Both the position numbers and the translations under genes were made by a program. This document shows, in pieces, positions 4,432 through 43,653 of a stretch of 64,000 nt of DNA. Each line of letters starts with the position of its first letter. Position 1 is the stretch's first letter. This DNA is from the human T2T-CHM13v2.0 reference genome, Homo sapiens. The DNA is taken from the NCBI RefSeq assembly GCF_009914755.1, contig NC_060935.1. The stretch is one strand, 5' to 3'. The notes under the pieces were generated by a model. That model was not told the DNA's origin. It saw only the letters and a program-made list of their open reading frames with translations, and made no database searches.

Positions 4432-4718
<287 letters not shown>

Positions 4719-6120
4719 AAAACAAGATCTTTGTACTTGTAAAAAAAAAAAAAAAAAAAAAAAAAACGGAGATACTTCTTTATTTTTAACCACTTTCTTT
4801 TTTCTTTCATATTTTTAATATTCTTTATCATATTTGAATGAATTTGGATGGAAGTTAATCTATCATGGATCTTGCACTTAATATCAGAATTTTTCTTCCT
4901 TATAAAATTTTGAAGTAGCAAAACAGACATTTTACTCTTAATTGATCCCACAAGTTATGACTAATTCTCAAGTAGACATTTTCTTAAGAGATTAATGGTC
5001 TAAGTCGAATTAAATAACTACAAGTTAAATATAGTTCTTAAAAATTCTTTGATTTAATGTTTAAACTGCTATTCTGCCAAATAATTCTATAAAGATTGGA
5101 ATTATAGAAGATAATTGAATCTCTATTATTCTGCCTAGGTATTCTTATTTAAATTTGTATAAACATTTGTTGGCTCCTAAAGAATAAAATGTTCTTCCTA
5201 AAGTTATCTAGCTAACACACTCTTTTATTATTAATATGAACTATCAGTTTATTTTCTATTTATTTAAATATTTGAAACTTAACAATTACGTTTGCAAATA
5301 AAGTTCACATCTTTCAATTATCATTAATTATTGTACTATTTTATCCTGGAATAATATATGTGTATTCACCAACTGAGAGAAATAATTTCAACATATAAAG
5401 CATGAAAGGAGATTTTTCAGTTCAAGTGACTTTTAAAATATTTACCTATGTCTGAAAATGAATGTCCAGATATTAATGATAAATCCAAATGAGCTGCCTT
5501 GTTTGTATTCCTGATGTAATTACACTGGTTAAATATTATGTTCCTTTCTCAATCACAAGACCATTGATTTGCAAAATTTCAGAGATGTCAGAATGACACC
5601 AAAATAAGCATTCAACTATTTACCTTCCAAAGGCCAAAACCCAGGTGAAACAGAAGAATTTGGCTGAGTTGGAAGGCTGAAACCAAACTTCAATGCCTAC
5701 TGACTCACAAAGGTTCTCATCTAGATTAGGAATGATCAGGCAACTGGCTCCCAAGCCAGGGACAGCTCCACAGTCCAGCTCTTCATTGACTCAGTCAACA
5801 AATGTTCATTGAACACCTACTATGCGCCAAGCTTGGTGCTAGGCACAAAGAATCCAGCAGTAAAAAAAAACAGAGTCTGGTTGGAGAGAGAGAAGTAAAC
5901 AATTAGTAGACTATAGTGTATCAGATAGATTTCAATGCATTAATAGTCCCAACTATTGTCCTACCTGTATTCAATACAGGTAGATATGCTGTCCTGTAAG
6001 TTTGTACCCTCCTCACACTCTGACTCTGCTCTGCCTAGGGGTGTGCTTTGGCCAGTAGAATAAATAAGGCAGAAGTGATGTTGTACCAATTCTGAGCATA
6101 AGTTTCAAGAGGCCCTGCTA

Positions 6121-40112: not shown

Positions 40113-40417
40113 TGATTTTCCAGCCAGCCAGTGAGTCCAGCCCTGCTGCCTCCCCAGGTCACAGTACCTTGGGTCCCTGCCTCACCTCATCTTTCATTCC
40201 CCTATGCCAGAAGGAGGGAGGACCTGCCCTTCTTGAGTGCCTAATATGTGCTGGGCCTGAGCTAGCCTCTTTACATCCTTCACTTCATTTAGTCCTAATC
40301 CTGTGAGGCAAGGCCATGTTTCCACTGCATTTGAGATACACTGGTTTTTAGCAGTGTATCCAAAATCACTTAACTTCCCCCATGCCTCTGTTTCCATGTC
40401 TATAAAATAGAGGGAGG

Positions 40418-40760
40418 GGCTGGGCGTGGTGGCTCATGCCTGTAATCCCAGCACGTTGGGAGGCTGAGGCGGGTGGATCACTTGAGGTCAGAAGTTTGAG
40501 ACTACCCTGGCCAGCATGGTGAAACCCCGTCTCTACTAGTTAGCATTTCAAAGTCTCATTTGTTATCGGAATTAACCAGACAAAGAATGGCCATGCACCA
40601 CCACCCACAGAATTGAGAAAGAGCTATCAATCTGTCAATCCTGTCCGTGTCCAGGCTGGGTGAGGTTTCCCGTGTTGAGATTGCAGTGAGCCAAGATTGA
40701 GCCATTGCACTCCAGCCTGGGTGACAGAGTGAGATTCCATCTCAACATAAATAAAATAAA
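40418..40760 (+). mobile_element. AluS whose central ~95 bp are replaced by an 18S rRNA fragment
   Basis: The left arm runs to CCCCGTCTCTACTA (40538). The right arm resumes at GAGATTGCAGTGAGCC (40677) and ends in an A-rich tail. Confidence 0.9.
40535..40679 (-). pseudogene. 18S rRNA fragment (approx. nt 1247-1407, 16-nt internal deletion); non-functional
   Basis: Reverse complement reads CTCAACACGGGAAACCTCACCCAGCCTGGACACGGACAGGATTGACAGATTGATAGCTCTTTCTCAATTCTGTGGGTGGTGGTGCATGGCC...GTCTGGTTAATTCCGATAAC...ATGCTAACTAGT, a conserved eukaryotic SSU segment. Most differences are CpG transitions. Confidence 0.95.
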
Positions 40761-43653
40761 GATGCTGGAAAAGATCCAGTGCCTCCAGGAAGCTGGGGGA
40801 GCCAAGTGGGCTCCTGGCCTTCACTCCTGCTTCAAGTAGGGCAGCTTTGGATGTGTCCCTTCGCACACGGAAGATATGCTTTAGACGTAGTTAGACTAAC
40901 AGGGGTAGGGGGAGCCTTGCACACATTGGCCATAGGATTTCAGTGAGGGGAGTGAGTAGAAGTCCCTGTGGACCAATCTCTGATCTTTCATCCTCGCTGA
41001 CATAGCCACAGTTTTATTCCTTTCTGTTCTGAGAAGACTTGGAGAAGGGAGAGGTGGCACTAAATCTCGATTCATGAGAATGAATTCTGATCATCCCAGC
41101 CTCCTTGTCAGTTATTAGTTTAAGCAGGATTGGCCAGTGAGGTATAAGAAGTCTACTAGTGGCTTCTGGAAAGGTTTTCTAACTCTTCAAAAGAGACACA
41201 AAACAGGAATGTTCCCTCTCTGGTCTCTTGAGGGATGCTCAGCATGATGGCTGGAGCTGTGGCAGCCATTTGGGACCATGACGGCAATCACTTTAGGACA
41301 CCTGAGTCTTCGGTGACATCACTGAACTTTGGAACTAACTAACTTAGGCACCATTTATGCTTCTTTTAATATGTTTTCTCTCCCATGCTGCTGAAGTGTC
41401 TTAGCTGGCTTAGCTCAACATTTCTGTTGTGTGGTTAACACGGTCCTGTTCTAAGCCTTAAGAACCCATGACTAGAACAATGGGATGATGCAGCCCAGCG
41501 GGGCTTGAATTGAAACTATTCACCCAACAGCACCTGTCAGAGCAAGCTCCTGGGCACCTGCCTGGGTTCTCAACCTCCAACCAATCCCCTTCTTTTCCTT
41601 TTACTCTGTACTGTGCTTCTCAACCTATTCCCAGCCTTTCATTGGTTCTATGACTTCCCTGCTTCCCCTTGAACCAACCTAGGCTCCACTCCTGGACTTT
41701 CATCCACTCCTTGGACTTTCTGGTTAATCTGGGAAACAGTTCAGCCCCATTCAGCCTGATCCCAAACTCCTGCCATAATGCCTGCCCATTGGTTTTCCTG
41801 CTTACCTCCTCCCAGAAAAGTAAATGAGACACAGAACCCACACCTGAAACAACATGTATTTGAAAACCCCTGATTTAAAGCATACTCACTTTGGATGGAA
41901 TCTCAAAGGGAGAGAAATGATTTAGAACAATACAATCAATTCAACCACCACCCCAGTGAATCAGTGGGTCCTGGAACCAACCCTATCAATCCTCTAAATC
42001 TCGGGCTCTGGAATGGCATCATAGTCATGGAACTGAACATGAACCAAACCATATTCCATTTGTCTCTGCTCTCAACTCCCAAAACCTACTGGGGTAGGAT
42101 CAACAGAGAAAAACACCGACCTTCATCTCTGTCCTAGAACTGAGAGCTCAAGCCCATCAGAGTTGAACTCTGGGAGGTAAGAGAACGTGCAGAGGATGTG
42201 AAGGTCGTCACCCCTCCTGAGGCCAGGCAGGCAACATGCGTGGGGAAAGAAGCCAGGGTGTGAGGCAACAGTATTGGTGGGACCTGTGAGAAAGTGGGGA
42301 CCAGTGAGACCAGCAAAACGCCAAAAGTCCAAATTTTCAAAAATACTACCAGCTAAACTAGTTTGCCCCACTGGCCTCCAGTTTTCCAGCTTCTAGGCTT
42401 TGGAGTCAGTTGGCCCTGAAATGGAATCCCTGCTCTGCCATCTGTTGGCTATGTGACTTTGCAAGAGCAAGGTAACATCTCTACAGCCTCAGTTTCCCAG
42501 CCACTTCCTAGCTGTGTGACCACAGGCAAATGACTTGATGTCTCTAAGCCTTGGTTGCCTCATCTTAGAGTGAGGATCATCATAATTTCTATTCTAGAGG
42601 GCAGTGCAATGATCGGATGAGATAATGCATGCTGCATTGCTTAGCACATTGGCACACAAAGAGCAAGTGTGATTATTAGATGGAAGCTTCCAGGAGAAAG
42701 AATGGCAGGGCTTTTTCCCCTCTGCTATGTGGGCTCATGGATTCAGCTCTGACGCCTGCCAGACAGCCTTCTAGCCTGCTGGGTGGGAGAGGGCTGTGCT
42801 GGCAGGAACTAGAGATGCCTGGACCTTAGTGCTGCATCCATCTCTGATGCCCTCATCCCCTAAGTGGATCTCCACTCCTTCCCTGCTGCTGCAGTCTCAG
42901 GGAAGATGAAACTTGCTATCATAAGAGTGAATTCCTAATGAAAAGCCCAAAGGGGACAACTAGTTACATAAAGGAGGAAAGCAAGCTGGATGGAGACGAT
43001 GGTAAACTAGACAGTTCTGCATGGGGGAGCCACTCCTCAGCTCTCATCATTTTTTGCCATTTGGGAATGTGGGCCTCAAAGGCTGGAATTTCTAATTTTG
43101 AAAGAGAAGCCGGAAATCTGAAAGTTTATGTGCAATTTCCTGAGTTTAAAAGAAGATTCAAATTTATAAAAGACTGTGCGTGTGGGCTGTGTGGCACATA
43201 TGTGGACCAAATTCAGCCTCAGGCCATCATTTCACAGCCTCTTAGAGGATAAATTCTTTGGAAGCTTATCACATCAGTGAGAGGTCGAGTAGGACACAGA
43301 ACCCACAGGGCAAAGGTGGCAGCATCTCTACCAACCAGAGCTAATGGGATTGTCCCTGTTTTCTGTCCCAGTTCAAATGCCCTTCTTTTTCCACCTCCAC
43401 AGAAGAGAAGCTTCCCATAGGGGATTGGTCTGGCTGCTTCTACCATTTTCCAGCAGCCTGTAAATAAAAAACATTTACAGGCTCTCTGAGTGTGTGAAAG
43501 GTTTTACCGCCCTTCTCTGCTGTGTTGTTGCTAATGAGCAAGGCAGGGAGCGGGAGAGAACTAGAGGAGTTGTGTGACGGTTGCTTTTGCTACTGCTGAT
43601 AATAATAGTTATAATAACAAGTTTTCTGTTACAATAATAATAATAATAACAAC

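What the first reader, a model, noticed from the sequence alone, without database searches (positions are those of the whole stretch)
40418..40760. 18S rRNA cDNA patch inside an Alu, ending at the RT-blocking m1acp3Psi1248: candidate fossil of RNA-templated break repair
Seen: about 95 bp of an Alu (A-rich linker and start of the right arm) is gone, replaced by 145 bp of antisense 18S rRNA with no poly(A) or TSD of its own. Both junctions share microhomology: ACTA (Alu CTCTACTA / antisense 18S ACTAGTTAGC, 40535-40538) and GAG (antisense 18S GTGTTGAG / Alu GAG-TTGCAGTGAGC, 40677-40679). Known: the U in 18S GAC-U-CAAC (human U1248) carries m1acp3Psi, which blocks or miscodes reverse transcriptase. 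Here the rRNA match stops at CTCAAC, i.e. nt ~1247-1250. Inference: a broken Alu 3' end primed on mature rRNA via ACTA, was extended until the hypermodified base, and rejoined via GAG. Candidates are Pol theta RT/MMEJ or endonuclease-independent L1 ORF2p. The antisense orientation argues against an ordinary Alu-to-rRNA template switch during TPRT. CpG decay shows the event is old. With one event, coincidence cannot be excluded.
Basis: partly seen in the sequence, partly recalled or inferred. Interest (0 to 1): 0.85.

Follow-up and report, generated by a model that had tools for sequence, protein, structure and literature searches.

The report
18S rRNA patch inside an Alu
A 145-base copy of ribosomal 18S RNA, in reverse orientation, replaces the middle of an old Alu repeat and stops exactly at a chemically modified RNA base that blocks copying enzymes, so it is probably a fossil of DNA mended by copying mature ribosomal RNA.

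Summary
It replaces 94 bp of an AluS-like element. There is no poly(A) and no duplication. ACTA is shared at the left junction and GAG at the right. The rRNA-sense 5' end falls at U1248 (m1acp3Psi), within 2 nt.

This is the only such boundary in the T2T genome (1 place), so 18S alone gives no enrichment test.

At 28S m3U4530, three independent RNA-derived 28S fragments begin at or 1 nt after the modified base (11 places). Three control windows gave no true boundary. Of 29 tailed 28S 3'-end retrocopies, 0 pass m3U4530, and the longest starts 1 nt after it. No 18S 3'-end retrocopy exists, as the m6,2A1850/1851 block predicts (0). m1A1322 gave none.

Best reading (about 0.6): a broken Alu end primed on mature 18S rRNA, a reverse transcriptase (L1 ORF2p more likely than Pol theta) ran to the modified base, and microhomology rejoined the ends. 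A DNA template or coincidence remains possible.

The parts
40419..40538 (+). Alu left arm (AluS-like), intact up to ...CTCTACTA, just before the A-rich linker
   Evidence: Metazoa_SRP hit at 40419-40535. The alignment to 11 full Alus of the window ends at CTACTA.
40535..40538 (.). Left junction microhomology ACTA, shared by the Alu (end of left arm) and antisense 18S (complement of 18S 1404-1407). This is the inferred priming site.
40535..40679 (-). 18S rRNA nt 1247-1407, with the sense on the minus strand. It has 10 substitutions, 7 of them at CpG.
   Evidence: BLAST to L002, numbering from Rfam on L002, global alignment, CpG count.
40584..40585 (-). Site of a 16-nt internal deletion of 18S (about 1342/1344-1357/1359). 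Its placement is ambiguous by 2-3 nt because of flanking TT.
   Evidence: In the Rfam consensus structure the missing stretch covers one helix strand plus a small hairpin.
40547..40551 (-). Cluster of the only three non-CpG substitutions in the patch (18S C1391T, G1394A, C1395A), 9-13 nt from the priming junction
   Evidence: 3 of 125 non-CpG sites are changed, all of them here.
40677..40679 (.). Right junction microhomology GAG, shared by antisense 18S (complement of C1247-U1248-C1249) and the Alu right arm. The modified base U1248 is opposite 40678.
40677..40745 (+). Remainder of the Alu right arm, resuming 94 consensus bases after the left arm ends
   Evidence: Alignment to 11 window Alus.
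40746..40762 (+). Decayed A-rich tail of the Alu. A weak flanking repeat lies at 40402-40412 and 40751-40761 (10 of 11).

Best explanation
This is an old germline repair scar that was templated by mature 18S rRNA.

Inferred sequence of events:
1. An AluS-like element already in place was broken at or near its A-rich linker.
2. The top-strand 3' end (...CTCTACTA) annealed through 4 nt to 18S rRNA at UAGU 1404-1407.
3. A reverse transcriptase extended it for about 155 nt towards the 5' end of the rRNA.
4. Synthesis ended at m1acp3Psi1248, whose N3 substituent blocks base pairing.
5. The new 3' end (...GTGTTG, or ...GTGTTGAG) paired through 1-3 nt with the Alu right arm 94 bp downstream and was sealed. 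The intervening Alu sequence was lost.

The enzyme is most likely L1 ORF2p, acting either at a pre-existing break or at its own nick with internal priming. Pol theta is the alternative.

Shown directly: the anatomy, the end points, the microhomologies, the uniqueness and the age.
Shown for 28S, and so by analogy only: RNA-derived rRNA insertions in this genome stop at a base modified on its pairing face.
Inferred: the RNA template at this locus, the enzyme and the order of steps.
For: (1) The patch lies wholly inside mature 18S, and its rRNA-sense 5' end is at 1247-1250, on the 3' side of U1248. This is the side from which a reverse transcriptase would arrive.

(2) m1acp3Psi1248 is one of only four human rRNA modifications on the pairing face. 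With the TGIRT enzyme it gives a modification index of 0.885, about half stops and half miscoding (PMC5066629, passages read).

(3) The same rule is visible at 28S m3U4530. A boundary pattern found 11 places, which are 3 independent events:
- chr4 (L039): starts 1 nt after m3U, runs to the mature 28S 3' end and carries an A-rich tail.
- chr2 (L040): 137 nt, no tail, starts at or 1 nt after m3U.
- A duplicated family (9 places; the C8 copy, L041, examined): the 28S 3' part starts 1 nt after m3U and is joined through TT to 28S 2621-2710. It ends at the mature 3' end with no 3'ETS.
Controls 20 nt upstream, 20 nt downstream and 60 nt downstream gave 0, 0 and 2 places. The 2 places are continuing copies with small deletions.

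(4) Of 29 28S 3'-end copies not followed by 3'ETS, 0 extend past m3U4530, and the longest starts 1 nt after it.

(5) No 18S 3'-end copy of 29 nt or more exists (0 places), against 29 for 28S. This is what the m6,2A1850/1851 pair 19 nt from the 18S 3' end predicts.

(6) M-MLV reverse transcriptase stops at the base immediately 3' of m3U (PMC11641110, passages read).

(7) No tail, no duplication, a target deletion and junction microhomology match class 2 templated insertions, which are held to be RNA-derived (PMC5110952, passages read).

(8) The antisense orientation between two collinear Alu parts rules out a simple template switch during the Alu's own insertion.
Against: - Only one event ends at 1248. 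The boundary pattern found no second place in the genome (1 place).
- Few RNA-type 18S fragments cover this region. Of 8 dispersed copies examined, 6 are long DNA-type pseudogenes with spacers and 1 is a chimeric retrocopy starting at 1278. There is therefore no statistical power at this site.
- 28S m1A1322 gave 0 places.
- The shared GAG makes the end ambiguous. If GAG came from the cDNA, the enzyme read through the modified base and one further nucleotide.
- TGIRT reads through m1acp3Psi about half the time. The behaviour of ORF2p or Pol theta on it is unknown.
- Most 28S retrocopies are shorter than 250 nt. A ~155-nt product could have ended anywhere nearby, and I put the chance of a hit within a 3-4-nt window at roughly 1-3% (my estimate).
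- Longo et al. list a 771-bp tailed 3'-LSU fragment at 19q13.2 that would pass m3U4530. I did not examine it.
- The acp3 group is added late, in the cytoplasm (recalled), so a mature rRNA would have to reach the break.
- Nothing in the patch itself (no splice junction, no tail) proves an RNA template.
Confidence: 0.6

Rival explanations
1. DNA-templated patch. A fragment of rDNA or free 18S cDNA/DNA was captured at the break by end joining, or a replication fork switched template to rDNA by microhomology (MMBIR/FoSTeS). The end at 1248 is then a coincidence.
For: Microhomology at both junctions and either orientation are also expected for DNA capture or template switching. Dispersed DNA-type rDNA copies are common: 6 of 8 dispersed copies examined carry 5'ETS/ITS1 (PMC5381670, abstract read). 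There is only one event at 1248.
Against: The patch holds no spacer and lies far from rDNA, in a euchromatic chr11 region (finding header). A random end would fall within the 3-4-nt window at U1248 in about 1-3% of cases or fewer (my estimate). The analogous untailed chr2 28S patch and two other 28S fragments end at m3U4530, which DNA capture does not predict. The patch is no closer to the examined pseudogenes (82-83%) than to rDNA (84%).
Confidence: 0.2
2. The patch was RNA-templated, but the end point was not set by the modification. The enzyme fell off by chance or at local structure, or the template was an rRNA fragment already cut near 1248.
For: 5' ends of 28S retrocopies scatter widely: 28 of 29 end before reaching m3U4530. 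The chr12 18S chimeric retrocopy ends at 1278, not at a pairing-face modification. The junction ambiguity spans 1247-1250.
Against: Three independent 28S events share the same precise coincidence, against 0 true boundaries in three control windows.
Confidence: 0.13
3. One-step origin during the Alu's own retrotransposition, by template switching or twin priming that involved 18S rRNA.
For: L1 reverse transcriptase does switch to rRNA. The chr12 locus joins 18S 1278-1425 head-to-tail to a processed UHRF-type mRNA copy. CpG decay of patch and Alu is similar (7/10 against 9/11).
Against: A switch to sense rRNA would leave the 18S in the same orientation as the Alu. Here it is antisense between two collinear, same-strand Alu parts. 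Twin priming inverts the 5' part of the element itself, which is not seen. Non-CpG divergence of the patch (3/125) is lower than that of the Alu arms (10/167).
Confidence: 0.04
4. The locus is a copy of a retrotransposed or duplicated Alu-18S chimeric source.
For: None found.
Against: Only the locus itself matches across both junctions, and the boundary pattern has a single place.
Confidence: 0.01

Closest known systems
Class 2 templated sequence insertions (Onozawa and Aplan; PMC5110952, passages read)
   Same: A patch copied from a distant locus sits at a break. It has no target duplication and no poly(A), and it shows a micro-deletion and microhomology at the junctions. These insertions are thought to be reverse-transcribed RNA.
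   Different: The template here is rRNA ('rRNA' and 'ribosomal' each occur 0 times in that review). The event is fixed and old rather than polymorphic. The end coincides with a modified base.
L1-mediated tailless retropseudogenes (Noll et al. 2015, PMC5322556; passages and Table S3 read)
   Same: There is no A tail. Priming is internal, through complementarity between the target site and the RNA. The authors list 5'-truncated 18S (2) and 28S (10) examples in human.
   Different: Those were selected for flanking duplications, whereas this locus has a 94-bp target deletion. It is not among their listed coordinates. The paper does not mention modifications ('modif' 0 times).
SINE28 / 28S 3'-end retrocopies (Longo et al. 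2015, PMC4994717; section 9 and passages read)
   Same: These are rRNA copied by L1 machinery. Their eight fragments of 535 +/- 20 bp correspond to the copies found here that start 1 nt after m3U4530.
   Different: They are 28S, sense, tailed and primed at the 3' end. The authors treat the 535-bp class as segmental duplicates and leave open why only the 3' end is captured. Modifications are not considered ('modif' 0 times).
Endonuclease-independent L1 insertion and Pol theta RNA-templated repair (PMC8195485 and papers citing Morrish 2002; search listing and abstracts only)
   Same: A DNA 3' end at a lesion is extended on RNA and the ends are joined by microhomology.
   Different: Neither enzyme can be assigned from sequence alone. 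I found no report that either is stopped by rRNA modifications.
Chimeric retrogenes made by L1 template switching (Buzdin and colleagues; recalled, no paper read)
   Same: L1 reverse transcriptase jumps between cellular RNAs. The chr12 18S-UHRF-type locus found here is of this kind.
   Different: The parts of such chimeras share one orientation and one tail. The window's 18S is antisense and internal.

Membership tests
Class 2 templated sequence insertion | Inserted sequence is a copy of a distant genomic or transcribed sequence | tested here: met
   18S 1247-1407; the rDNA lies on the acrocentric chromosomes and the locus on chr11.
Class 2 templated sequence insertion | No target-site duplication and no poly(A) at the insert | tested here: met
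   Both junctions are direct, and 94 Alu bases are deleted instead.
Class 2 templated sequence insertion | End-joining marks: microhomology or micro-deletion at the junctions | tested here: met
   ACTA (4 nt) and GAG (3 nt) are shared at the junctions.
Class 2 templated sequence insertion | RNA intermediate | tested here: inconclusive
   The end at m1acp3Psi1248 and the 28S m3U4530 analogues support it. The patch has no splice junction or tail to prove it.
L1 tailless retropseudogene | No oligo(A) tail, with internal priming by complementarity to the target site | tested here: met
   ACTA pairs with 18S UAGU 1404-1407, and there is no A run.
L1 tailless retropseudogene | Flanking target-site duplication | tested here: not met
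   There is a 94-bp target deletion and no repeat at the patch borders.
L1 tailless retropseudogene | L1 endonuclease-type nick site at the priming junction | tested here: inconclusive
   In an intact Alu the primer strand would read ...ACTA/AAAA. The A run fits, but the upstream part is not T-rich. The consensus is recalled.
Chimeric retrogene by L1 template switch | Both parts in the same transcriptional orientation, sharing one 3' tail | tested here: not met
   The 18S is antisense to the Alu and internal to it.
DNA-type dispersed rDNA pseudogene (Robicheau et al.) | Carries spacer (ETS/ITS/IGS) or near-full rDNA units, often near centromeres | tested here: not met
   Only 18S 1247-1407 is present. 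By contrast, L031-L033 and L035-L037 span 5'ETS to ITS1.

The most novel reading that the evidence does not exclude
Modifications on the pairing face of mature human rRNA leave nucleotide-exact footprints in the germline genome. The sites are m1acp3Psi1248 and m6,2A1850/1851 in 18S and m3U4530 in 28S. They stop the cellular reverse transcriptase that copies rRNA into chromosomes, and so set the 5' ends of rRNA-derived insertions, this Alu patch included. This would explain the ~535-540-nt ceiling of 'SINE28' copies and the absence of 18S 3'-end retrocopies. It would also show that fully matured, cytoplasm-type rRNA has served as a template for patching germline DNA breaks.
Probability: 0.5. 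Interest if true: 0.75.

Novelty: new variant of a known kind. Interest (0 to 1): 0.6.

Why it matters
If the reading is right, the end of a genomic insertion records the chemical state of the RNA that templated it. That gives a sequence-only way to tell RNA-templated from DNA-templated patches. It also shows which maturation stage of rRNA reached the chromatin.

It answers a question left open in print: why only the last ~500 nt of 28S are retrocopied (Longo et al. 2015). It also predicts simple experiments using TSR3- or SPOUT1-deficient cells and purified ORF2p or Pol theta on native against unmodified rRNA.

For this window the practical consequence is small. The locus is an old, neutral scar in an intergenic Alu between SLC35C1 and CRY2.

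I found no paper linking rRNA modifications to retrocopy ends in these searches:
- 'm1acp3' + 'reverse transcriptase' + 'pseudogene': 2 unrelated papers.
- 'SINE28': 10 papers.
- '28S' / 'retropseudogene' / 'modified nucleotide': 15 of 520 listed.
- 'templated sequence insertion' + 'rRNA' + 'microhomology': 0 papers.
Subscription journals are not covered.

Tried and rejected
- Full histogram of 18S fragment ends: not feasible. BLAST-type searches score only 40 of 243 candidates, and pattern listings stop at 100 rows, so the tandem rDNA arrays swamp them. Of the 100 rows listed, 94 are array copies. I used boundary patterns instead, which exclude rDNA by demanding mismatches just outside the boundary.
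- 18S control window 20 nt upstream of U1248: not run. Only the downstream control exists. It gave 5 places, all continuing long pseudogenes with a 1-nt deletion. Three of them lie in L035-L037. The other two were judged from the matched strings only.
- m1A1322 boundary: 0 places. I mapped the site from the recalled spacing of neighbouring methylations, and it falls on position 1322 when the 2 nt missing from the Rfam start are added.
- chr4 and the chr8-family 28S copies as one event: rejected. Their flanks are not collinear, the junctions differ, and most shared differences also occur in other retrocopies. Three non-CpG changes are shared by these two alone, which is near chance expectation.
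- chr8 family as a decayed rDNA unit: rejected. It has no 3'ETS after the 28S end.
- Supplements: Robicheau's zip was listed but not opened. Longo's Table S1 is in a PDF that cannot be read here, and it may hold LSU coordinates that bear on the m3U and m1A counts.
- Primate orthologues: no primate genome is held, so the event could not be dated by presence or absence.

Full report
**What is there**

Window 40419-40762 is one AluS-like element whose middle has been replaced.
- The left arm runs from 40419 to ...CTCTACTA at 40538. Rfam sees it as an SRP-related hit at 40419-40535.
- The right arm resumes at 40677 (GAG-ATTGCAGTGAGCC...) and ends in a decayed A-rich tail.
- Against 11 full-length Alus of the same window, 94 consensus bases are missing. 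These are the A-rich linker and the first part of the right arm.

In their place sit 145 bp that Rfam calls eukaryotic SSU rRNA on the minus strand (72.3 bits, E 8.8e-19).

I took an rDNA unit of the same genome as reference (L002, chr13; 18S = L002:255-2123 by Rfam, 1869 nt). BLAST and a global alignment place window 40535-40679 on 18S 1247-1407, antisense. They give 135 of 161 identities, 10 substitutions and one 16-nt gap. It lies between 40584 and 40585 and removes 18S about 1342/1344-1357/1359.

ACTA at the left junction and GAG at the right junction are each shared by both partners. The unique rRNA part is therefore 1250-1403, and the rRNA-sense 5' end lies somewhere in 1247-1250. U1248 is L002:1502.

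The patch has no A run and no duplicated target. Only the locus itself matches across both junctions in the whole genome.

**Age**

- In the patch, 7 of 10 aligned CpGs are decayed.
- Only 3 of 125 non-CpG sites differ, all within 18S 1391-1395 (window 40547, 40548, 40551).
- The Alu arms show 9 of 11 CpGs decayed and 10 of 167 non-CpG differences against the 11-Alu consensus.

The event is old, tens of millions of years by CpG decay (my inference). It is no older than the Alu. No primate genome is held here, so presence/absence dating was not possible.

**Polarity**

If sense rRNA was the template, the primer must have been the top-strand end ...CTCTACTA-3', pairing with UAGU 1404-1407. Synthesis then proceeds from 1403 towards 1248.

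The modified base therefore lies exactly where a reverse transcriptase coming from the 3' side would meet it. A template switch during the Alu's own insertion would instead leave the rRNA in the same orientation as the Alu.

**Is the modification a real block?**

Clark et al. 2016 (PMC5066629, passages read) state that human rRNA has four modifications on the pairing face: m1acp3Psi and m6,2A in 18S, and m1A and m3U in 28S. With TGIRT, position 1248 gives a modification index of 0.885, about equally from stops and miscoding.

For m3U, M-MLV reverse transcriptase stops at the base immediately 3' of the modified U, which sits in a 'triple-U' at the peptidyl transferase centre (PMC11641110, passages read).

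**Genome-wide test at 18S 1248**

A 30-nt piece of 18S (1281-1310) has 239 places with up to 3 mismatches. Of the 100 rows listed, 94 are tandem rDNA copies.

I examined 8 dispersed copies:
- Six are long DNA-type pseudogenes running from 5'ETS into ITS1.
- One (chr12) is 18S 1278-1425, 100% identical, fused head-to-tail to a processed UHRF-type mRNA copy.
- One is this locus.

To find boundaries without the rDNA background, I used a pattern that demands mismatches at four positions just outside the boundary and allows 3 mismatches in all. rDNA and continuing copies then fail.
- At U1248 the pattern finds 1 place, this locus.
- A control 22 nt downstream finds 5 places, all continuing long pseudogenes with a 1-nt deletion.
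- The upstream control was not run.

So 18S offers too few RNA-type fragments for an enrichment test. The locus stands alone at this site.

**Test at the other pairing-face modifications**

I took 28S from L038 (28S = L038:887-5969 by Rfam). I placed m3U4530 at the first U of the triple-U, 30 nt after the A-loop UGU (recalled numbering). This is consistent with its distance to the 3' end and with the 'triple-U' statement.

The boundary pattern there gives 11 places. They are three events.
- chr4 (L039): 28S from 1 nt after m3U to the mature 3' end, followed by an A-rich tail. It sits just behind the poly(A) of another Alu.
- chr2 (L040): a 137-nt internal 28S piece with no tail, starting at or 1 nt after m3U. 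This is the closest analogue of the window's patch.
- A family of 9 places on chr8, 12, 13, 14, 15, 21, 22 and Y. I examined the chr8 copy (L041); the others were judged from near-identical matched strings. The 28S 3' part starts 1 nt after m3U and is joined through a shared TT to 28S 2621-2710. This is what a stalled cDNA jumping to another part of the template would give. It ends at the mature 3' end without 3'ETS.

The chr4 and chr8-family copies have non-collinear flanks and different junctions. Most differences they share are also present in other retrocopies, so those are old 28S states. Three non-CpG changes are shared by these two alone, about what chance predicts.

Controls 20 nt upstream, 20 nt downstream and 60 nt downstream of the m3U boundary gave 0, 0 and 2 places. 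The 2 places are continuing copies with 1-2-nt deletions.

m1A1322 gave 0 places.

**3'-end retrocopies**

A pattern for the mature 28S 3' end not followed by 3'ETS finds 29 places, nearly all with A-rich tails. I fetched all 29.

Their 5' ends lie at Rfam coordinates 4546, 4641, 4656, 4663, 4746 and then 4854-5029. None of the 29 passes m3U4530 (coordinate 4545), and the longest begins at 4546.

The same design for the mature 18S 3' end finds 0 places. This is expected if m6,2A1850/1851, 19 nt from the end, stops the enzyme. Other reasons, such as an inaccessible or untailed 3' end, are not excluded.

**Relation to print**

- Longo et al. 2015 (PMC4994717; section 9 and passages read) described 37 3'-LSU loci. 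[quoted passage not shown] The authors asked why only the 3' end is captured. The word stem 'modif' does not occur. They also list a 771-bp tailed fragment at 19q13.2 that would pass m3U4530. I did not examine it, and it counts against a strict block.
- Noll et al. 2015 (PMC5322556) describe tailless L1 retropseudogenes, including 2 from 18S and 10 from 28S. This locus is not in their Table S3, and modifications are not mentioned.
- Onozawa and Aplan 2016 (PMC5110952) define class 2 templated insertions, which this locus fits.
- My searches found no paper linking rRNA modifications to retrocopy ends.

**Verdict**

I put these odds on the alternatives:
- About 0.6 on an RNA-templated patch ended by m1acp3Psi1248.
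- About 0.13 on RNA-templated with a chance end.
- About 0.2 on a DNA template.
- About 0.05 on the remaining readings (0.04 for a one-step origin during the Alu's own insertion and 0.01 for a duplicated chimeric source).

L1 ORF2p is the more likely enzyme, because tailed, L1-type 28S copies show the same stop. This is an inference, and Pol theta cannot be excluded.

Noticed in passing
L039 (G000:C4:79226505-79227026), L040 (G000:C2:191027247-191027383, minus strand), L041 (G000:C8 about 46418937-46419545); 9-place family: Three independent RNA-derived 28S fragments begin at or 1 nt after m3U4530. The chr8 family joins 28S 2621-2710 directly to the part that starts after m3U, through a shared TT. 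Its copies flank the rDNA arrays on chr13, 14, 15, 21 and 22 and also lie on chr8, chr12 and chrY.
   Followed up: yes
29 places listed (L039, L042-L069): Tailed retrocopies of the mature 28S 3' end. None passes m3U4530. Their 5' ends cluster at Rfam coordinates 5004-5011 (5 of 29) and 4956-4971 (6 of 29), and these clusters are unexplained.
   Followed up: partly
whole genome G000: No copy of the mature 18S 3' end (29 nt or more) lies outside rDNA context, against 29 for 28S. This fits a block at m6,2A1850/1851.
   Followed up: partly
L034:2987-4574 (G000:C12:20429886-20431473): 18S 1278-1425, 100% identical to rDNA, is fused head-to-tail to an intronless copy of a PHD-SRA-RING (UHRF-type; recalled as UHRF1) coding sequence. 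The reading frame stays open for 520 aa. Upstream is an A-rich target. This is a chimeric retrocopy of the template-switch kind.
   Followed up: partly
window 40584/40585 and 40547-40551: Inside the patch, 16 nt of 18S are deleted, flanked by TT on both sides. The only three non-CpG changes sit together 9-13 nt from the priming junction. Either could be a polymerase slip or error made at synthesis, or a later mutation.
   Followed up: no
L031, L032, L033, L035, L036, L037 (chr20, chr15, chr2, chr13, chr14 x2): Long rDNA pseudogenes, 82-84% identical to rDNA, run from 5'ETS through 18S into ITS1. They are DNA-type copies of the kind Robicheau et al. described.
   Followed up: partly
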